A stretch of 64,000 nt of DNA from the UHGV virus genome UHGV-1351982; one strand, 5' to 3'. This DNA comes from a virus. The position numbers and the translations under genes are program-made. Below are positions 1 through 6,557 of this stretch, one piece after another (the first letter of the stretch is position 1; the number at the start of each line of letters is the position of its first letter). The notes under the pieces are model-generated. The model did not search any database. It was given only the letters and a program-made list of their open reading frames with translations, and was not told the origin of the DNA.

Positions 1-68
1 GTCACTCAGAATTGAACTGAGTTCCACTGCTTGCAAGGCAGTAAGTTTAACCAAATAACCTATGACCC
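1..68 (-). tRNA. tRNA, 3' end truncated by window start; anticodon not securely resolved
   Basis: Reverse complement shows T-arm ctcag-ttcaatt-ctgag, anticodon-arm-like hairpin actgc/gcagt, acceptor gggtcat pairing with the window edge. Confidence 0.4.
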
Positions 69-77
69 CGAATTTGG

Positions 78-2490: not shown

Positions 2491-2616
2491 TGGCGTTCTA
2501 GGGAGGACTTGAACCTCCTATCACTTGTGCGGAATTACGAGCAAACCATTTATCTACGGAATCGAACCGTATCTCAACCCTCGGCAAGCTGGCTTCCCCA
2601 CTCAGCCACGCTAGAA
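2491..2616 (-). tRNA. atypical tRNA-like element of about 126 nt with two T-arm-like hairpins; may be one unusual RNA or two overlapping degenerate tRNAs
   Basis: 3' end has T-arm ggagg-ttcaagt-cctcc, acceptor ctagaac and CCA; the complementary acceptor strand ttctag lies about 120 nt upstream; a second hairpin tacgg-ttcgatt-ccgta sits inside. Confidence 0.3.
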
Positions 2617-2699
2617 TGATAATTAGTGCCTGCTCCTTTGAATCAAGAAGTCCACCCTGGACTTTGGGTCTTTGCAGTACATCACGCTGCTCTGATGTT

Positions 2700-2775
2700 T
2701 GGTACACCCACTAGGACTTGAACCTAGAACCCTCCGCTTAAGAGGCGGTAGCTCTAACCATTGAGCTATGGATGT
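2700..2775 (-). tRNA. tRNA with apparent CUU anticodon (Lys), tentative
   Basis: 76-nt cloverleaf: acceptor acatcca/tgggtgt, D-stem gctc/gagc, anticodon loop ctcttaa, T-arm ctagg-ttcaagt-cctag, CCA. Confidence 0.5.
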
Positions 2776-2851
2776 ATTATTATGTTTTGCAGTGCTCTAA
2801 ATATAGACACTTCCCACGCGGTGGTTATCTATACCAGCGTCCTGCAAAAAT

Positions 2852-2928
2852 TGGCGCGACCGATGGGATTCGAACCCACATTTTCTCCCGTGACAGGGGA
2901 GTACCATTACCAAGCCAGCCCCGATCGC
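2852..2928 (-). tRNA. tRNA-Asp (anticodon GUC)
   Basis: Acceptor gcgatcg/cggtcgc, anticodon stem ctccc/gggag, loop ctgtcac, T-arm gtggg-ttcgaat-cccat, CCA. Confidence 0.6.
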
Positions 2929-2937
2929 ATAATTTAT

Positions 2938-3123
2938 TTACTCAGTTTTGAGTTTTTCGATAGCTTCCTCAACCTCTTTTAGAGCTTCACGACGGACATT
3001 CTGTTGCTGCATATCTTGAATTAATGTCAGTTTTTGGTTTTCAATTTCTTGATCCCAAACCTTAATATTATTAATCAGACTATCACGATCAGCTTCTAGT
3101 CGAGCAATTGCACGAGTTGTCAT
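2938..3123 (-). CDS. hypothetical coiled-coil protein (61 aa)
   Basis: ORF only; charged, helical-looking sequence. Confidence 0.4.
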   Translation of the reverse strand: MTTRAIARLEADRDSLINNIKVWDQEIENQKLTLIQDMQQQNVRREALKEVEEAIEKLKTE

Positions 3124-3225
3124 ATCTATTTCCTCAGTTATTAATGAAAATGGTATCTGTGACTGAATTCAATATCAGTAATGATAGCTGGTTGGCTACC
3201 GGTTTACTTAACTCTACACAGAATA

Positions 3226-3312
3226 TGGCGGGCCGTGTAGGAGTCGAACCTACTTTATCCTTGCGGATACGGATTAACAGTCCGGCGCTTAAACCGTTCA
3301 GCCAACGACCCT
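3226..3312 (-). tRNA. type II (long variable arm) tRNA with apparent GUU anticodon; identity uncertain
   Basis: 87 nt: acceptor gggtcgt/acggccc, 3-bp D-stem, anticodon loop ctgttaa, variable hairpin tatcc-gcaa-ggata, T-arm gtagg-ttcgact-cctac, CCA. Confidence 0.45.
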
Positions 3313-3317
3313 AAATT

Positions 3318-3393
3318 TGGACGACCGCATGAGATTCGAACTCACATAAGGAGGTTTTGCAGGCCTCCGCCTAAGCCATTCAGCCAACGGTCG
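3318..3393 (-). tRNA. tRNA-Cys (anticodon GCA)
   Basis: Acceptor cgaccgt/gcggtcg, anticodon stem ggagg/cctcc, loop ctgcaaa, T-arm gtgag-ttcgaat-ctcat, CCA. Confidence 0.55.
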
Positions 3394-3571
3394 ATTTATC
3401 TTGTTTTTCGAGATTAGTAAATTCTAGGTCTTTGGAATGCCCTATAGATCTAGCATAATAACCATCTCCAGCATCGTAGCCTGATTTACCACACTCACAC
3501 ATCTTAAACTCCCGATAACGAGTGAATGTATGCTCAGAACCACAACACTTAAATTTAACTAACATTTTCAT
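3380..3571 (-). CDS. small zinc-ribbon-like protein (63 aa)
   Basis: ORF with CCGSEH ... CECGKSG cysteine pairs. Confidence 0.45.
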   Translation of the reverse strand: MKMLVKFKCCGSEHTFTRYREFKMCECGKSGYDAGDGYYARSIGHSKDLEFTNLEKQDKSTVG

Positions 3572-3810
3572 GAAACACGCTCCGGTAGATCTTCTAATTT
3601 ATATTCAGTAGCTACATTAGCAGCGTCTAGTAATAAACCCATATGTTTAAGGATTTTAGTAATAGATTCGCCTTCAGCTTCTTCTACAAAGGTGCGTAGT
3701 TGAATGAAGTCAATACCACCATCCATACCAGAGAAAATGTTTAGTAAGCGAAGCATTACCAGCTTACGTTCTTTTAATTCTTGTTCTGTCATGTTGCTTC
3801 TCCAGTTCAA
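3568..3810 (-). CDS. hypothetical protein (80 aa)
   Basis: ORF, start/stop overlap with the downstream gene. Confidence 0.5.
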   Translation of the reverse strand: MNWRSNMTEQELKERKLVMLRLLNIFSGMDGGIDFIQLRTFVEEAEGESITKILKHMGLLLDAANVATEYKLEDLPERVS

Positions 3811-3842
3811 TTTATGTAATAATTATACGGAACTTTAAGGAT

Positions 3843-4130
3843 TTAAGCAACTACATTTTTCAGAAATTTGATGCCTTTCTTTTTCTTCTTATATTTCCAC
3901 GTTAATGGATTCTGTCGATTATGAACGCTTGAGATCTTTGTCTCGTCAAAGTTCTTCAAGACCATGTAATCACATGCCAACTGCTCTAGTGGAATGGTTT
4001 CTCCATCAAAAGCATAAACATAAGGCTGTTGACTAACACGATAATGATAGACTTTGTTAATTCTACGTTTCAGCGACTTATCCGCGCAGTAAATAAAGAA
4101 GTTTTCAGGATGCATCAGCATCTCCTTCAA
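3843..4130 (-). CDS. hypothetical protein (95 aa)
   Basis: ORF. Confidence 0.5.
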   Translation of the reverse strand: MKEMLMHPENFFIYCADKSLKRRINKVYHYRVSQQPYVYAFDGETIPLEQLACDYMVLKNFDETKISSVHNRQNPLTWKYKKKKKGIKFLKNVVA

Positions 4131-4132
4131 AT

Positions 4133-4207
4133 TGGTGCAACCTGTACGTAACGATCGTACCTCTTCTCCTTTTCAGGGAGACGCTAATCCATCTCAGCTA
4201 AAGTCGC
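4133..4207 (-). tRNA. tRNA-Phe (anticodon GAA)
   Basis: Acceptor gcgactt/aggttgc, anticodon stem tctcc/ggaga, loop ctgaaaa, T-arm gtacg-atcgtta-cgtac (non-canonical loop), CCA. Confidence 0.5.
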
Positions 4208-4213
4208 AAATAT

Positions 4214-4290
4214 TGGCAAACCTACTAGGACTCGAACCTAGACCGTACGGTTTTGGAGACCGACATGCTGTCCAGTAACACTCTAGGAAT
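4214..4290 (-). tRNA. tRNA-like, apparent CCA anticodon (Trp); acceptor stem poorly paired
   Basis: T-arm ctagg-ttcgagt-cctag and anticodon loop ctccaaa present, CCA end; only 4 of 7 acceptor pairs. Confidence 0.3.
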
Positions 4291-4298
4291 GCAGAAAT

Positions 4299-4376
4299 TG
4301 GCGTCCTGTGCGGGGATCGAACCCGCAAACCCTACCTTGAAAGGGTAGTGACTTTACCAGTTTGTCTAACAGGACT
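4299..4376 (-). tRNA. tRNA-Glu (anticodon UUC)
   Basis: Perfect acceptor gtcctgt/acaggac, anticodon stem ctacc/ggtag, loop ctttcaa, T-arm gcggg-ttcgatc-cccgc, CCA. Confidence 0.65.
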
Positions 4377-4382
4377 TAAATT

Positions 4383-4473
4383 TGGTGTTGGATGATGGAG
4401 TCGAACCACCCGAGACCCTTCCGAGTCGGCAGATTTACAGTCTGCTTCGCTACCTCTACGATACTAATCCAAC
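4383..4473 (-). tRNA. tRNA-Tyr (anticodon GUA), type II
   Basis: 91 nt; acceptor gttggat/atccaac, anticodon stem gcaga/tctgc, loop ctgtaaa, long variable arm, T-arm ggtgg-ttcgact-ccatc, CCA. Confidence 0.6.
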
Positions 4474-4537
4474 ATATTTAGAAATATTCAAATACTAGTT
4501 TAAACACTTTTAAATATGTTTTCCAAATTAGATAACT

Positions 4538-4566
4538 ATTATATCAAGTTTTGAAGGACTGAGCAA
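4538..4566 (-). promoter_or_regulatory. sigma70-like early promoter for the tRNA block at 4133-4473
   Basis: Minus strand: ttgctc, 17 nt, tataat. Confidence 0.45.
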
Positions 4567-4602
4567 GTCAAATTTTAAAGAACTTGCTCAGTGCTATATC
4601 AG

Positions 4603-4878
4603 TTACTCGAAGCTAGGAGTGACACTCAGTTTGAATGGAAGCTCGAACACTTCTTCATAATCATCATTGAGCGTAATTACACGACCTTCTAGCTTAGTTA
4701 TGGTGATTTCGATATCAGCCTTTGCATCCGGAGCCATACCAGCTTCCACACATTTAGCTTTGACTTCCGGCAGAAGTTCTACATCGTAGAAATAAAGCCA
4801 TTCAATCTCACCTTCCCAGCCACCCCAGGATTTACAAACAGCACTTTCAACACCAGTTGCAGAAACACGTTTTGACAT
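4603..4878 (-). CDS. hypothetical protein (91 aa)
   Basis: ORF downstream of promoter at 4908-4938. Confidence 0.5.
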   Translation of the reverse strand: MSKRVSATGVESAVCKSWGGWEGEIEWLYFYDVELLPEVKAKCVEAGMAPDAKADIEITITKLEGRVITLNDDYEEVFELPFKLSVTPSFE

Positions 4879-4968
4879 TCGTTAACTCCTTCATCAATTT
4901 ATATAACTATTATAGCAGAAATCTTAAGTAAAAAGCAAGTACATTTTTAAAATTTCTGCTTGGAGGAG

Positions 4969-5241
4969 TTAAACTCCTGATTCTTCAGCCAGATCAAGCC
5001 CAACCAATGTGATTGCCATAATAGCCGCGCCATGTTCTTTCTCTCCTAGCTCTTTGGCTTGAGTGAGAATATTGAGGAATTGCTTTTGAAAATCTGCAAC
5101 TTCTTCTGTCATGCCTGCTTCAGCAATAATTCCTTTCAGCATAAAGCGTTGTGCCGTAATTTCAGGATTATCCATTTGTTTTCTCCAGTTGTTTAGAGTG
5201 TAAGCCAAACTTAGGCTCATAGCGATCGTAAGTCGTACCAT
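4969..5241 (-). CDS. hypothetical protein; start uncertain (internal ATG at 5175 has a GGAG RBS)
   Basis: ORF; an alternative short upstream ORF in another frame would be translationally coupled. Confidence 0.4.
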   Translation of the reverse strand: MVRLTIAMSLSLAYTLNNWRKQMDNPEITAQRFMLKGIIAEAGMTEEVADFQKQFLNILTQAKELGEKEHGAAIMAITLVGLDLAEESGV

Positions 5242-5326
5242 TAGTTGAAGCCTTGATGCTATGAAAACGACAGTACATAAATTTACGCAGTGCTTTCTTA
5301 ATAGCTTTCATTTTATTTCCTTAATT

Positions 5327-5404
5327 TGGTAGGGGTGGTGGGATTCGAACCCACAAAACCTGAATTTTAAGTCCAGTACCTATGCCAATTCGATTACACC
5401 CCCA
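5327..5404 (-). tRNA. type I tRNA with apparent UAA anticodon (Leu-like decoding of UUA)
   Basis: Acceptor gggggtg/cacccct, anticodon stem ctgga/ttcag, loop cttaaaa, T-arm gtggg-ttcgaat-cccac, CCA. Confidence 0.5.
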
Positions 5405-5495
5405 TGTAATCAGTTTATCAGTTGATACAAGTTGTAGCCCAGTGAAAATCCTACTATTAGTCCTACAAACCAACCAATATAATAATCTTTTAATT

Positions 5496-5843
5496 TCATA
5501 GTTCGTAACCTTGAATGTATCGAGCAAAGCCAGTAATTTCGAACTGGATAGCCCAGGCTACTTCCATGTGTTCAATCTTCTCAAACCGAGCGTCGGACTG
5601 CTCTAGGAAATAACGAGAGATTATAGGGAACTCAATGTCAAAGTCTTCCTTATCCATGCCATAATAGAAGTTCTCAGAGATATTACGCACTTCACAGAAG
5701 AAGTCCTCAATCTGAAAATCCATCAGAGGATAGGTATACTCCTCTTTGCTATCATCCGTTTGGAAGAAGCGGAAATGCACAAGGCAAGAGCCAATCAGGT
5801 TTACTGCTGGTGTAGTGTAGATATCCATCTTAACCTCGCTCAA
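5496..5843 (-). CDS. hypothetical protein (115 aa)
   Basis: ORF. Confidence 0.5.
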   Translation of the reverse strand: MSEVKMDIYTTPAVNLIGSCLVHFRFFQTDDSKEEYTYPLMDFQIEDFFCEVRNISENFYYGMDKEDFDIEFPIISRYFLEQSDARFEKIEHMEVAWAIQFEITGFARYIQGYEL

Positions 5844-6015
5844 TATCTAGAGAAATACCGCATTCAGGATTAATACCAGAACCATTACAATGTGTACAAA
5901 CGTATGTATTATACCATGTATCACCAGGTTCAGCATCGTTCCATTCACCTGCTCCGAAGCATTTTGGGCAGGCACACTCTTCTAGTTCCTGCTTCAATTC
6001 CTGAAACTTAGACAT
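5830..6015 (-). CDS. small Cys-rich zinc-ribbon-like protein (61 aa)
   Basis: ORF with CACPKCFGAG ... CTHCNGSG. Confidence 0.45.
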   Translation of the reverse strand: MSKFQELKQELEECACPKCFGAGEWNDAEPGDTWYNTYVCTHCNGSGINPECGISLDIERG

Positions 6016-6032
6016 ATCGTCTCCTAGTTAAT

Positions 6033-6110
6033 TGGTGGCTCCCGGAGGATTCGAACCTACCTACCTTTCGCTTATGAGGCGACGGCTCATACCAAATGAG
6101 CTTGAGAACC
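6033..6110 (-). tRNA. tRNA with CAU anticodon (second copy; Met or Ile-lysidine)
   Basis: Acceptor ggttctc/gggagcc, anticodon loop ctcataa, T-arm gtagg-ttcgaat-cctcc, CCA. Confidence 0.5.
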
Positions 6111-6115
6111 AAATT

Positions 6116-6209
6116 TGGAGGAAGATGCCAGACTCGAACTGGCACACCGTGTTTCCACAGCTACTAGCTGTTTAGCAAACAGCTCCCTTACCTTTAGGGT
6201 TAATCTTCC
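6116..6209 (-). tRNA. tRNA-Ser (anticodon GCU), type II
   Basis: 94 nt; acceptor ggaagat/atcttcc, 3-bp D-stem, anticodon stem gctgt/acagc, loop ttgctaa, long variable arm, T-arm gccag-ttcgagt-ctggc, CCA. Confidence 0.55.
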
Positions 6210-6223
6210 GAATTTATGAATAT

Positions 6224-6252
6224 ATTATACAGAAAATTTCGGCATTAAGCAA
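6224..6252 (-). promoter_or_regulatory. sigma70-like early promoter for the tRNA block at 6033-6209
   Basis: Minus strand: ttgctt, 17 nt, tataat, leader ataaattc. Confidence 0.5.
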
Positions 6253-6260
6253 GTGAAATT

Positions 6261-6557
6261 TTACTGAACATTGCACTGATATACTTGTTTGATACGTGTC
6301 ACTGACTTCTTAGTTGGGTTGATAGAAGAACCCTGCCACCAACGTGACTCTGAGCTAAGAACAGCACCAGGAACAGCTTGTTCTTTTGGCAGAACAATAT
6401 CAAAACACTGTTCACCCATATTATCTTTAATATGTGACCAAATGTCTAGAGTAAATCGTTCTAGCTTATTACAAACTTGAACTTGACAAAGTTCCTGTTG
6501 TGGAGCAGCAAATACAGAAGTAGATACTAGAGTCAATGCAAGTACAATGCGTTTCAT
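6261..6557 (-). CDS. secreted or periplasmic hypothetical protein with signal peptide (about 99 aa)
   Basis: Start MKRIVLALTLVSTSVFA after GAGAGAGG RBS; the longer ORF-track start translates the promoter leader. Confidence 0.55.
   Translation of the reverse strand: MKRIVLALTLVSTSVFAAPQQELCQVQVCNKLERFTLDIWSHIKDNMGEQCFDIVLPKEQAVPGAVLSSESRWWQGSSINPTKKSVTRIKQVYQCNVQ

What the first reader, a model, noticed from the sequence alone, without database searches (positions are those of the whole stretch)
3226..3312. Type II tRNA carrying a GUU anticodon
Long-variable-arm architecture is normally reserved for Leu, Ser and Tyr, yet the anticodon loop reads ctgttaa (GUU, Asn). It differs by one base from the tRNA-Tyr loop (ctgtaaa) at 4383-4473, which suggests a duplicated tRNA-Tyr with an anticodon switch.
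Basis: seen in the sequence. Interest (0 to 1): 0.45.

Follow-up and report, generated by a model that had tools for sequence, protein, structure and literature searches.

The report
Phage asparagine tRNA with extra arm
This T5-like phage encodes an asparagine tRNA that carries the long extra arm normally found only on leucine, serine and tyrosine tRNAs, and the same design recurs in roughly one in eight sampled viral asparagine tRNA genes, possibly to evade host enzymes that cut tRNAs.

Summary
Window 3226-3311 (minus strand) is an 86-nt tRNA with anticodon GUU and a 15-nt variable arm (4-bp stem, GCAA loop, AAA). ARAGORN, the Rfam tRNA model and a hand fold agree.

The "duplicated tRNA-Tyr" idea is not supported. 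The phage's own tRNA-Tyr is among the least similar tRNAs (31/60 comparable positions) and has discriminator A, not G.

The gene is a conserved phage tRNA-Asn. Homologues match in 617 phage records across unrelated groups. Compensatory changes support the arm. G34-U35-U36 and G73, the E. coli Asn identity set, are invariant. A looser IMG/VR scan found 89 distinct long-arm GUU tRNAs, about 13% of sampled viral tRNA-Asn genes. None occurs in 5,426 E. coli genomes.

Phage T5 carries a different, short allele at this locus. T5's short Asn and Thr(UGU) alleles alter the site cut by the PARIS nuclease AriB. The long-arm Asn and Thr alleles keep the host site and add the arm. Phage Bas33, which carries both long-arm alleles, needed only extra tRNA-Lys to escape PARIS.

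Best reading: a functional Asn tRNA whose arm is selected, possibly as a nuclease shield. That role is inferred, not shown. I found no prior description of the arm.

The parts
3226..3311 (-). Complete tRNA-Asn(GUU) gene, 86 nt, class II-shaped, CCA encoded
   Evidence: ARAGORN; Rfam RF00005 at 54.8 bits; hand cloverleaf; 100% identical copies in Salmonella phages JNwz02, EH3, SIY1lw and INF11
3276..3278 (-). Anticodon G34-U35-U36, inside loop CUGUUAA (window 3274-3280)
   Evidence: ARAGORN gives the anticodon at position 34; Rfam alignment; invariant in 13 homologues and 88 of 89 broad-set members have loop CUGUUAA
3254..3268 (-). Long variable arm, nt 44-58: stem AUCC/GGAU, GCAA tetraloop, 3 unpaired A
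   Evidence: Sequence; MFE fold; 3 of its 4 pairs show double-sided compensatory changes and 100% of cells pair; Rfam treats it as an insertion in the variable region
3269..3285 (-). Anticodon stem-loop, nt 27-43; nt 28-43 are identical to E. coli tRNA-Asn, including the AriB cleavage site U36-A-A-U-C|C41
   Evidence: Side-by-side comparison with asnT from E. coli K-12; cleavage site taken from PMC12409363
3287..3302 (-). D-arm, nt 10-25: 3-bp stem, G13.A22 unpaired, one nucleotide between A15 and G18G19, 4-nt stretch after G19 (class II-like)
   Evidence: Sequence; D-arm statistics for long versus short viral Asn, Ser and Tyr
3237..3253 (-). T arm GUAGG-UUCGACU-CCUAC
   Evidence: Sequence; pair counts
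3226..3229 (-). Discriminator G73 (3229) and encoded CCA (3226-3228)
   Evidence: Sequence; G73 invariant in 13 homologues and present in 85 of 89 broad-set members
3318..3393 (-). Neighbouring tRNA-Cys(GCA), 6 nt upstream in the same minus-strand tRNA array; marks the locus where T5 carries a homing-endonuclease ORF plus a short Asn allele instead
   Evidence: ARAGORN; T5 annotation; T5 sequence

Best explanation
This is a functional phage-encoded asparagine tRNA built on a class II-like body.

Shown by sequence and comparison:
- It is a well-formed tRNA with anticodon GUU, discriminator G73 and an encoded CCA.
- Its extra arm (a 3-4-bp stem, usually a GNRA tetraloop, then 3-4 unpaired nucleotides) and a class II-type D-arm are conserved by structure, not sequence, across many unrelated phages.
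- It is the only tRNA-Asn in this phage's cluster within the window.

Inferred:
- Host AsnRS charges it, because E. coli AsnRS identity rests on G34, U35, U36 and G73, and all four are conserved here.
- It then reads AAC and AAU, which are about 52 per 1000 codons in this phage's ORFs.
- The most likely reason for the arm is that it changes the shape of the tRNA next to the 3' strand of the anticodon stem. Host tRNA-cutting defence nucleases would then no longer fit, while the host-identical anticodon stem-loop that AsnRS and the Q34/t6A37 modification enzymes need is kept. The known example of such a nuclease is PARIS AriB, which cuts host tRNA-Asn between nucleotides 40 and 41 and also contacts D-loop positions 16-17.

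My probabilities: functional Asn-accepting tRNA about 0.85; arm under selection about 0.9; arm acts as a nuclease shield about 0.3-0.35. The confidence below is for the statement as a whole.
For: Gene and fold.

Conservation: 617 phage records hold a match (613 over at least 80% of its length). They include T5-like Tequintavirus, Epseptimavirus-like and Priunavirus, T4-like Winklervirus and Karamvirus and Klebsiella phages, Marfavirus and Phapecoctavirus. ARAGORN calls Asn(gtt) in all 12 loci fetched.

Covariation: 98.2% of cells paired, and 3 of 4 arm pairs have double-sided changes.

Identity: G34, U35, U36, G73 and CCA are invariant while the acceptor stem covaries. The E. coli Asn identity set is the anticodon plus G73 (PMC9976931).

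Broad set: 89 unique long-arm GUU tRNAs from IMG/VR have G73 in 85, and 1-72 is U-A (51) or G-C (38), like the 109 short viral Asn genes. About 13% of viral Asn genes are long-armed in a length-unbiased sample (12 vs 82). The arms fold at mean -2.9 vs -0.5 kcal/mol for shuffles and use 51 distinct stems. The D-arm co-varies with the arm.

Absence from hosts: no blastn match in 5,426 complete E. coli genomes, and no enterobacterial hit in 185,579 species genomes with the family pattern.

Shield idea:
- AriB cuts E. coli tRNA-Lys(UUU), Thr(UGU) and Asn(GUU) at 40|41, and U39 and U16 matter for cleavage (PMC12409363).
- T5's short Asn and Thr alleles change U39, while the long-arm Asn and Thr(UGU) alleles keep the host site exactly.
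- Bas33 (HildyBeyeler) carries an intact long-arm Asn one base different from the window's, plus a long-arm Thr(UGU). It was rescued from PARIS by tRNA-Lys alone.
- Bas34 (SelmaRatti) needed T5 tRNA-Asn supplied, and its long-arm Asn copy has a broken acceptor stem.
Against: - No aminoacylation, expression or cleavage data exist for the long-arm allele itself. The tRNA-Asn tested against PARIS was T5's short allele, which is a different gene.
- The Bas33/Bas34 comparison is indirect. T4 and T7 did not need extra tRNA-Asn at all, so Asn depletion may matter little.
- The long-arm D-loop also differs from the host's (one nucleotide where the host has U16-N17), so the D-loop rather than the arm could explain any resistance.
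- From general knowledge, class II synthetases such as AsnRS approach tRNA from the variable-loop side, so tolerance of a long arm is not guaranteed.
- GNRA-capped arms are also common on viral Ser and Leu tRNAs, so the loop type is not special to this family.
- Long arms also appear on Cys, Met/Ile, Trp and His tRNAs, for which no matching nuclease is known.
Confidence: 0.55

Rival explanations
1. Ordinary codon-supply tRNA-Asn whose extra arm is merely tolerated. It would be a lineage quirk kept only because a stable hairpin is less harmful than a floppy insertion, with no role in defence evasion.
For: - The phage is AT-rich (40.3% GC) and uses Asn codons at about 52 per 1000. From memory, E. 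coli uses about 39 per 1000.
- The identity elements are standard.
- Long arms also occur on several other phage isoacceptors with no known nuclease link.
- T5 and about 134 relatives manage with a short allele.
- Decayed or chimeric long-arm copies exist in Bas34 and Kenya-K38.
Against: - The arm persists with compensatory changes across unrelated phage families and in 89 divergent sequences with 51 different stems.
- It comes with a coordinated class II-type D-arm.
- It is absent from the hosts' own tRNA-Asn.
- Its pairing with a host-identical AriB site, in both Asn and Thr(UGU), looks non-random.
Confidence: 0.27
2. The arm is a handle for some other partner: a phage or host processing, modification or repair factor, or a tertiary contact. 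The aim would be to mark the phage tRNA as self, or to tune its maturation in the polycistronic tRNA cluster.
For: - The design is conserved: a short stem, a GNRA loop in 63%, and 3-4 unpaired nucleotides.
- Class-swapped tRNAs co-occur. Another non-canonical long-arm tRNA is present in 36 of 110 long-Asn loci against 9 of 87 short-only loci, and short-armed Leu in 27 of 53 against 7 of 26.
Against: - No candidate partner protein was identified.
- The phage groups that carry the arm are unrelated and, from general knowledge, share few genes.
- Loci with long-arm Asn also hold more tRNAs overall (10.8 vs 6.8), which confounds the co-occurrence.
Confidence: 0.1
3. Serine-accepting tRNA with an Asn anticodon. 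SerRS ignores the anticodon and reads a long arm plus G73, so the tRNA would insert Ser at AAC/AAU, giving mistranslation or recoding.
For: - The window's copy has a long arm, G73, G1-C72, G2-C71 and C11-G24.
- Serine identity relies mainly on the variable arm and G73 (PMC9976931; PMC7609411).
Against: [quoted passage not shown] 1-72 is U-A in 51 of 89.
- 2-71 is C-G in 32 of 89, and C2-G71 is listed as an antideterminant against SerRS.
- The arm is short: mean 15.4 nt with 3-4 bp, against 18.3 nt with mostly 5-7 bp for viral tRNA-Ser.
- GUU and G73 are conserved just as in ordinary viral tRNA-Asn.
- In most of these phage clusters it is the only Asn tRNA.
Confidence: 0.05
4. One reading: a duplicated tRNA-Tyr whose anticodon mutated from GUA to GUU. 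It could still be charged with Tyr, or be a decaying copy.
For: - The anticodon loops differ by one base.
- Both tRNAs have long arms.
- The arm stem GUC/GAC of many homologues resembles the E. coli tRNA-Tyr arm CGUCAUCGACUUC.
Against: - It matches the phage's own Tyr at 31 of 60 positions, which is background level.
- The discriminator is G, not A, and TyrRS needs A73.
- The gene is conserved as GUU in hundreds of phages rather than being a recent mutation.
- Viral Tyr arms rarely carry GNRA loops (5% vs 63%).
Confidence: 0.02

Closest known systems
Ordinary bacterial and phage tRNA-Asn(GUU), e.g. E. coli asnT and the 78-nt T5 tRNA-Asn (T5t17)
   Same: - Anticodon loop CUGUUAA, G73, and the U-A or G-C 1-72 pair seen in viral Asn genes.
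- Nucleotides 28-43 are identical to E. coli asnT.
- Same genomic slot as the T5 gene, between tRNA-Cys and tRNA-Asp, with the same downstream flank.
   Different: - A 15-nt structured variable arm instead of a 5-nt loop.
- A 3-bp class II-type D-arm.
- Only 34 of 60 comparable positions match E. coli asnT and 37 of 60 match T5's allele.
- T5's allele has an altered anticodon stem (UAAGUU) and is linked to a homing-endonuclease ORF.
Canonical class II tRNAs of bacteria (Leu, Ser, Tyr, Sec)
   Same: - A long variable stem-loop.
- A 3-bp D-stem with 13.22 unpaired and a long stretch after G19.
- Arm size and GNRA frequency are closest to viral tRNA-Leu arms.
   Different: - The anticodon belongs to a class I family.
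- G73 excludes Leu and Tyr identity.
- The arm is too short, and the acceptor pairs too variable, for Ser identity.
- No sequence affinity to the phage's own Tyr or Ser genes.
Anti-defence phage tRNAs: the T5 tRNA-Lys(UUU), Thr(UGU) and Asn(GUU) variants that neutralise PARIS (PMC11464382 listed; PMC12409363), and phage tRNA-Tyr against retron-Eco7 (PMC11555353)
   Same: - A phage copy of a tRNA that a host nuclease depletes.
- It lies in the same tRNA cluster of a T5-like phage.
- A natural carrier of this allele, Bas33, escapes PARIS once tRNA-Lys is supplied.
   Different: - The known resistant variants escape through base substitutions at or near the cleavage site, such as U39 and A41. This one keeps the host site unchanged and differs in overall architecture.
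- Its resistance has not been measured.
Class II tRNAs with unexpected anticodons: nematode nev-tRNAs (Gly and Ile anticodons, charged with Leu; recalled from memory, Hamashima et al. 2012) and allo-tRNAs (PMC5389517, PMC7609411)
   Same: A long-arm body combined with an anticodon outside Leu, Ser and Tyr.
   Different: - Those tRNAs are charged according to their body (Leu, Ser or Ala), which gives codon ambiguity.
- Allo-tRNAs have 8/4 or 9/3 acceptor/T stems.
- Here the acceptor/T configuration is the standard 7/5, and the identity elements fit the anticodon's own amino acid.
Type I tRNA-Leu of Streptomyces coelicolor (PMC6614811)
   Same: This is the mirror image of the present case: a tRNA family found in the other structural class and still charged by its own synthetase. 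The window itself holds a 77-nt short-armed tRNA-Leu(UAA).
   Different: - The change goes the other way (class II to class I).
- It is in a cellular genome.
- It has been verified biochemically.

Membership tests
tRNA (Rfam RF00005) | Cloverleaf that scores above the curated threshold, with G18G19 and a T-loop UUCRANY | tested here: met
   54.8 bits against a gathering score of 29, full model 1-71; ARAGORN; GG in the D-loop and UUCGACU in the T-loop
tRNA-Asn (E. coli-type identity) | G34, U35, U36 and discriminator G73 | tested here: met
   Present in the window's gene; invariant in 13 homologues; G73 in 85 of 89 broad-set members; rule taken from PMC9976931
tRNA-Asn (E. coli-type identity) | Aminoacylation with asparagine by AsnRS | not testable with these tools
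   No biochemical data exist for the long-arm allele. Only T5's short allele has been tested in vivo (PMC12409363).
tRNA-Asn (usual architecture) | Class I body: a 4-5-nt variable loop | tested here: not met
   15-nt variable region with a 4-bp stem. E. coli asnT has 5 nt.
Class II tRNA architecture | Variable region of 10 nt or more that forms a stem-loop | tested here: met
   15 nt; stem supported by covariation; definition from PMC7609411
Class II tRNA architecture | Anticodon for Leu, Ser or Tyr (or Sec) | tested here: not met
   The anticodon is GUU, which is Asn
Bacterial tRNA-Tyr | A73, U35 and anticodon GUA; here also sequence affinity to the phage's tRNA-Tyr | tested here: not met
   G73 and U36; 31 of 60 positions match the window's Tyr; rule from PMC9976931
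Bacterial tRNA-Ser | G1-C72 and G2-C71 conserved, and a long arm of Ser type | tested here: not met
   The window's copy has G1-C72 and G2-C71, but the family does not conserve them: U1-A72 in 51 of 89 and C2-G71 in 32 of 89. The arm averages 15.4 nt with 3-4 bp, against 18.3 nt with mostly 5-7 bp in viral Ser.
Allo-tRNA | 8/4 or 9/3 acceptor/T-stem configuration | tested here: not met
   Standard 7-bp acceptor and 5-bp T stem
Nuclease-resistant anti-defence phage tRNA (PARIS type) | Base substitutions at or around the AriB site (positions 39-41) | tested here: not met
   Positions 36-41, UAAUCC, are identical to E. coli tRNA-Asn
Nuclease-resistant anti-defence phage tRNA (PARIS type) | Resists cleavage and restores translation under the defence system | not testable with these tools
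   Only indirect evidence. Bas33 carries this allele and needed only tRNA-Lys, whereas Bas34 has a broken copy and needed tRNA-Asn supplied.

The most novel reading that the evidence does not exclude
Switching structural class is a general phage counter-defence strategy. Phages would graft a short GNRA-capped arm and a class II D-arm onto tRNAs that host nucleases target (Asn(GUU), Thr(UGU) and perhaps Cys, Lys and Met/Ile), and strip the arm from tRNA-Leu. This would let them keep the host-identical anticodon stem-loops that synthetases and modification enzymes need, while escaping nucleases that read tRNA shape, such as PARIS AriB. The window's tRNA-Asn would be one such shielded tRNA. AsnRS and ThrRS would then have to tolerate a class II body, which is itself a new fact about tRNA recognition.
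Probability: 0.3. Interest if true: 0.85.

Novelty: new variant of a known kind. Interest (0 to 1): 0.62.

Why it matters
Textbooks and current reviews restrict long variable arms to the Leu, Ser, Tyr and Sec tRNAs. Here a conserved, apparently Asn-specific tRNA breaks that rule. It does so in some of the most studied coliphage groups (T5-like and T4-like), and in about one in eight sampled viral tRNA-Asn genes.

If the tRNA is charged by AsnRS, then a class II synthetase that faces the variable side of the tRNA accepts a class II body. That is useful to know for tRNA engineering.

The finding also bears on why phages carry tRNAs. Two of the three known PARIS targets, Asn(GUU) and Thr(UGU), exist in phages in two forms. 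One has a mutated cleavage site. The other keeps the host site and adds an extra arm. The idea that the arm is a steric shield can be tested directly with existing AriB assays and existing phages (Bas33, Bas34, T5Mos).

On the practical side, annotation of this gene is inconsistent. Records label it tRNA-Asn, tRNA-Asx, tRNA-Cys or "hypothetical protein", or leave it unannotated. Bas34's annotated tRNA-Asn is probably a dead gene, which explains a puzzle left open in the PARIS paper.

Tried and rejected
- blastn of the 86-nt gene against 5,426 complete E. coli genomes found nothing, even at E<=1. There is therefore no host or prophage source.
Six were chance matches inside other sequence. Seven were partial or tRNA-Asn-derived copies in Saprospiraceae and other Bacteroidota, with a palindromic insert; they are not intact tRNAs. 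One, from a Nanoarchaeia MAG, is a real long-arm Asn on a contig with an XPD-type helicase, so it may be cellular. The pattern required this family's anticodon stem, so long-arm Asn genes with other stems in cellular genomes remain untested.
- A plain MAFFT alignment with the phage's Tyr, Ser and Leu genes was uninformative. I replaced it with a domain-by-domain comparison.
- I first assumed that the T5 tRNA-Asn used in the PARIS study was this gene. Reading the T5 sequence showed it is a different, short allele, so that experiment cannot count as direct evidence.
- The T5 GenBank note that anticodon replacement does not make its tRNA-Asn an amber suppressor also refers to the short allele. 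I use it only as context.
- I expected GNRA capping to be special to this family. It is equally common on viral Leu and Ser arms.
- Eight literature searches found no description of a long-arm tRNA-Asn. The library lacks most subscription-journal papers, so older T5 or BF23 work cannot be excluded.
Full report
**1. What is in the window**

The window is a T5-like phage. Region 2500-6300 is 97% identical to Escherichia phage SmurfNell and 93-96% identical to EPS7, Stitch and many Salmonella phages. Its first 13 kb hold a minus-strand array of 18 ARAGORN tRNAs. Rfam supports 17 of them and adds two more hits.

The flagged gene is at 3226-3311 (minus strand) and is 86 nt long. ARAGORN calls it tRNA-Asn(gtt). 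Rfam RF00005 scores it at 54.8 bits over the whole model. That alignment puts GUU at the anticodon and places 12 extra nucleotides as an insertion in the variable region.

By hand, the cloverleaf has these parts:
- a 7-bp acceptor stem;
- a 3-bp D-stem with G13.A22 unpaired;
- the loop CUGUUAA;
- a 15-nt variable region, AUCC-GCAA-GGAU-AAA;
- a normal T arm;
- discriminator G;
- an encoded CCA.

**2. The gene is conserved and the arm is selected**

blastn finds the gene in 617 phage records, 613 of them over at least 80% of its length. I fetched twelve diverse loci:
- T5-like: Spc35, Kenya-K38, KKP_3822 and Providencia PR1;
- T4-like: Serratia CHI14, Erwinia Vettismorki, Enterobacter AS6 and the Klebsiella phages Roth01 and AM_K4;
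- Marfavirus EI;
- Phapecoctavirus ESCO5 and ZCKP1.

ARAGORN calls an 83-88-nt Asn(gtt) in every one. In the alignment, G34-U35-U36, G73, CCA, G10, C11, G24 and C25 are invariant, while the acceptor stem changes in a compensatory way.

Counting pairs gives 98.2% of cells paired. Eleven pairs change on both sides, against 5.3 expected from shuffles (0 of 500 shuffles reach 11). Almost nothing remains when the partners are slid. Within the variable arm, three of the four pairs covary (A-U/G-C, C-G/U-A/U-G, C-G/A-U) and 100% of cells pair. The last variable nucleotide also covaries with position 15 (G15-C48 or A15-U48), as a Levitt pair would.

**3. It is not a copy of tRNA-Tyr**

I split every tRNA into domains and compared 60 positions of fixed register.

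| Compared with the window's long-arm Asn | Matches out of 60 |
|---|---|
| Other long-arm Asn genes | 47-54 |
| T5 tRNA-Lys(UUU) | 43 |
| Phage tRNA-Cys | 39-41 |
| E. coli tRNA-Tyr | 37 |
| E. coli tRNA-Asn | 34 (anticodon stem 9/10) |
| The window's own tRNA-Tyr | 31 |
| The window's own tRNA-Ser | 31 |

The Tyr gene has discriminator A. According to PMC9976931, A73 and U35 define Tyr identity in E. coli, and G73 works against TyrRS and LeuRS. The one-base difference between the loops is simply GUU versus GUA.

**4. Which amino acid**

In E. coli, Asn identity rests on the three anticodon bases and G73 (PMC9976931). All four are invariant here.

Ser identity would need the long arm plus G73 and conserved G1-C72 and G2-C71. 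The window's copy has those pairs, but the family does not keep them (ESCO5 has A2-U71, and others have U1-A72). So Asn is the best-supported identity. This is an inference from sequence, not a measurement.

**5. The phenomenon is much wider than this phage group**

After ARAGORN and stem-quality filters, the pooled viral loci gave 89 distinct long-arm GUU tRNAs, 79-91 nt long. Their acceptor and anticodon stems are very different, and they come from contigs of 5-412 kb from many samples.

| Feature | 89 long-arm GUU tRNAs | 109 short viral tRNA-Asn |
|---|---|---|
| Discriminator G | 85 | 104 |
| 1-72 pair U-A | 51 | 70 |
| 1-72 pair G-C | 38 | 36 |

In the long-arm set, 2-71 is C-G in 32, and C2-G71 is listed as an antideterminant against SerRS. 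The loop is CUGUUAA in 88.

The arm is 11-20 nt long, most often 15. Its stem has 3-4 bp in 69 of 89, and it carries a GNRA tetraloop in 56 of 89. There are 0-1 unpaired nucleotides 5' of the stem, and 3-4 unpaired 3' of it in 68 of the 83 that fold. The arms fold at a mean of -2.9 kcal/mol, against -0.5 for shuffled versions, and use 51 different stem sequences.

The D-arm changes along with the arm. A 4-nt stretch after G19 occurs in 39% of long Asn genes and 4% of short ones, and in about 39% of both Ser and Tyr.

In a scan that accepted both lengths, 12 of 94 validated unique GUU tRNAs were long-armed, or about 13%.

The hosts lack this gene. There is no match in 5,426 complete E. coli genomes, and no enterobacterial hit among 185,579 species genomes with the family-specific pattern.

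**6. Other class-swapped tRNAs in the same phages**

Among unique, well-formed tRNAs in the viral loci available at that point:

| tRNA | Long-armed | Total |
|---|---|---|
| Cys | 8 | 31 |
| Thr(UGU) | 8 | 38 |
| CAU anticodon (Met/Ile) | 8 | 68 |
| Ile | 6 | 62 |
| Lys | 6 | 79 |
| Arg | 0 | 71 |
| Val | 0 | 31 |
| Gly | 0 | 59 |
| Phe | 0 | 28 |

In the other direction, 35 of 80 Leu genes have a short variable loop. One of them is the window's own 77-nt tRNA-Leu(UAA) at 5327-5403. It keeps A73, A15-U48 and the GGCA motif. That fits the report that E. coli LeuRS does not need the arm.

**7. Two alleles at one locus**

Phage T5 itself has a different gene in the same slot, between tRNA-Cys and tRNA-Asp, with the same downstream flank. 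It is a 78-nt short-loop tRNA-Asn with anticodon stem-loop GCAUC-UUGUUAA-GUUGA.

About 134 T5-like records carry that allele. It overlaps an ORF that depositors annotate as a GIY-YIG, T5orf172 or homing endonuclease. Kenya-K38 is a chimera, with a long-arm 5' part and a T5-type 3' end. The short allele therefore looks like a homing-endonuclease-linked replacement of the long-arm allele. This is an inference.

**8. Link to a known defence system**

PMC12409363 reports the following:
- U39->A abolishes cleavage and U16->C impairs it.
- An AlphaFold 3 model places one AriB monomer on positions 40-41 and the other on D-loop positions 16-17.
- T5's Lys, Thr and Asn tRNAs together neutralise PARIS.

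That paper never mentions a variable arm. The Asn it tested is T5's short allele.

| tRNA | Positions 36-41 |
|---|---|
| E. coli Asn | UAAUC\|C |
| T5 short Asn | UAAGU\|U |
| Window and Bas33 long-arm Asn | UAAUC\|C (nt 28-43 identical to host) |
| E. coli Thr(UGU) | UAAUC\|A |
| T5 short Thr | UAAGC\|A |
| Bas33 long-arm Thr | UAAUC\|A |

So, for two AriB targets, phages show two alternative solutions. One changes U39. The other keeps the host site and adds an arm, together with a D-loop that has one nucleotide where the host has U16-N17.

**9. A natural experiment**

Bas33 is HildyBeyeler and Bas34 is SelmaRatti (PMC11619597).

Bas33 carries an intact long-arm Asn that differs from the window's by one T-loop base. 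It also carries an 87-nt long-arm tRNA-Thr(UGU), and no tRNA-Lys(UUU) in the region fetched. In the PARIS paper, tRNA-Lys alone rescued it.

Bas34's annotated tRNA-Asn is a decayed long-arm copy. Its 3' acceptor strand, ACCCGCU, cannot pair with GGGUCGU, C32 has become U, and ARAGORN does not call it. Bas34 needed T5's tRNA-Asn supplied, which the authors left unexplained.

Together, these observations fit a long-arm Asn and a long-arm Thr that work and survive AriB in vivo. The evidence is indirect, because T4 and T7 did not need extra tRNA-Asn at all.

**10. Verdict**

The gene is real and is already annotated as tRNA-Asn in many records, though inconsistently. Other records call it tRNA-Asx, tRNA-Cys or a hypothetical protein, or leave it unannotated.

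I found three things described in none of the papers I could search:
- the gene belongs to a structurally coherent, widespread, virus-associated class of class II-shaped tRNA-Asn;
- the same design recurs on Thr(UGU) and other tRNAs;
- the arm alternates with cleavage-site mutation at PARIS target tRNAs.

The literature search consisted of eight queries. The review of non-canonical tRNAs, PMC7609411, does not mention this class.

I rate it a new variant of a known kind. Function as an Asn tRNA is likely (about 0.85). Selection on the arm is very likely. A nuclease-shield role is plausible (about 0.3) and directly testable.

Noticed in passing
window 5327-5403 (-); also L066 4053-4129 and 9015-9091, and 17 other T5-like loci: A 77-nt tRNA-Leu(UAA) with only a 5-nt variable loop (GUUUU), so it is class I-shaped. 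It keeps A73, A15-U48 and GGCA in the D-loop. A matching short tRNA-Leu(UAG) occurs in relatives. Across the viral loci, 35 of 80 unique Leu genes are short-armed.
   Followed up: partly
L066 11225-11311 (Bas33/HildyBeyeler); L016 4406-4492; L030 8998-9084; six further IMG/VR loci: An 87-nt tRNA-Thr(UGU) with a long variable arm (AGGA-GUAA-UCC-CGUU), a class II-type D-arm and a host-identical AriB site UAAUC|A. Nine unique long-arm Thr(UGU) genes were found, and all have 13.22 unpaired. The window ends before the position where this gene would lie.
   Followed up: partly
L013 7953-8525 (phage T5, NC_005859 33952-34524), compared with window 3226-3393: T5 and about 134 relatives carry a short 78-nt tRNA-Asn allele that overlaps an ORF annotated as a GIY-YIG, T5orf172 or homing endonuclease (T5.069). 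In the window, tRNA-Cys and the long-arm Asn are only 6 nt apart. Kenya-K38 (L009 301-383) is a chimera of the two alleles with a mismatched acceptor stem.
   Followed up: partly
L065 12605-12681 (Bas34/SelmaRatti, MZ501103 72604-72680): The annotated tRNA-Asn is a decayed long-arm copy. Its acceptor stem is broken, C32 has become U, and ARAGORN does not call it. This probably explains why Bas34 needed T5 tRNA-Asn for rescue from PARIS in PMC12409363. The same phage has a 91-nt tRNA-His with a 19-nt variable region (L065 14522-14612), which I did not examine.
   Followed up: partly
window 3148-3225 (-): The 78 nt just downstream of the tRNA-Asn are conserved in T5, which annotates the stretch as misc_RNA rna3, a 'putative tRNA-like RNA'. 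The region folds at -16.6 kcal/mol (z = -2.4, 1 of 200 shuffles as good). Neither ARAGORN nor Rfam calls it a tRNA.
   Followed up: partly
window 2547-2616 (-), 12919-12990 (-) and 1-69 (-): ARAGORN's 70-nt tRNA-Arg(ccg) at 2547-2616 has no Rfam hit and no CCA, so it may be a tRNA-like remnant. Conversely, Rfam reports a borderline tRNA (29.3 bits) at 12919-12990 that ARAGORN misses, and a tRNA-Ala cut off by the window start at 1-69.
   Followed up: no
L045, L047, L048, L049 (5501-5796, three copies at a 128-nt period), L052, L053, L058: Saprospiraceae and other Bacteroidota MAGs hold partial or tRNA-Asn-derived copies with a 16-nt palindrome (CCCGATAGCTATCGGG or GCCGATAGCTATCGGC) inserted where the variable loop would be. 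Several lie next to a normal 75-nt tRNA-Asn. They lack a complete acceptor stem. They may be integration-site remnants or a small mobile repeat.
   Followed up: no
L046 1524-1607 (-), Nanoarchaeia MAG contig JBAZPJ010000062: The only intact long-arm tRNA-Asn found in the cellular-genome collection (arm GUC-GUGCA-GAC-AAA, no encoded CCA). It lies on a 7-kb contig that encodes an XPD/Rad3-type helicase and shows no phage hallmark, so a cellular (DPANN archaeal) example cannot be excluded.
   Followed up: partly
IMG/VR loci L067-L286: Long variable arms also occur on some viral Cys(GCA) (8 of 31), CAU-anticodon (8 of 68), Ile, Lys, Trp, His, Glu, Asp and Pro tRNAs, but on none of 189 Arg, Val, Gly and Phe genes. 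Twenty of 110 loci with a long-arm Asn also hold an ordinary short Asn. Class-swapped tRNAs tend to co-occur, although loci with a long-arm Asn also hold more tRNAs overall.
   Followed up: partly
GenBank records listed: Annotation of this gene is inconsistent: tRNA-Asn in most records, tRNA-Asx in OSY-STA, tRNA-Cys in KpnM6E1, 'hypothetical protein' in KM16, SE18 and ECOP18, and no annotation in many others (e.g. JNwz02, INF11, SP_Thor).
   Followed up: no
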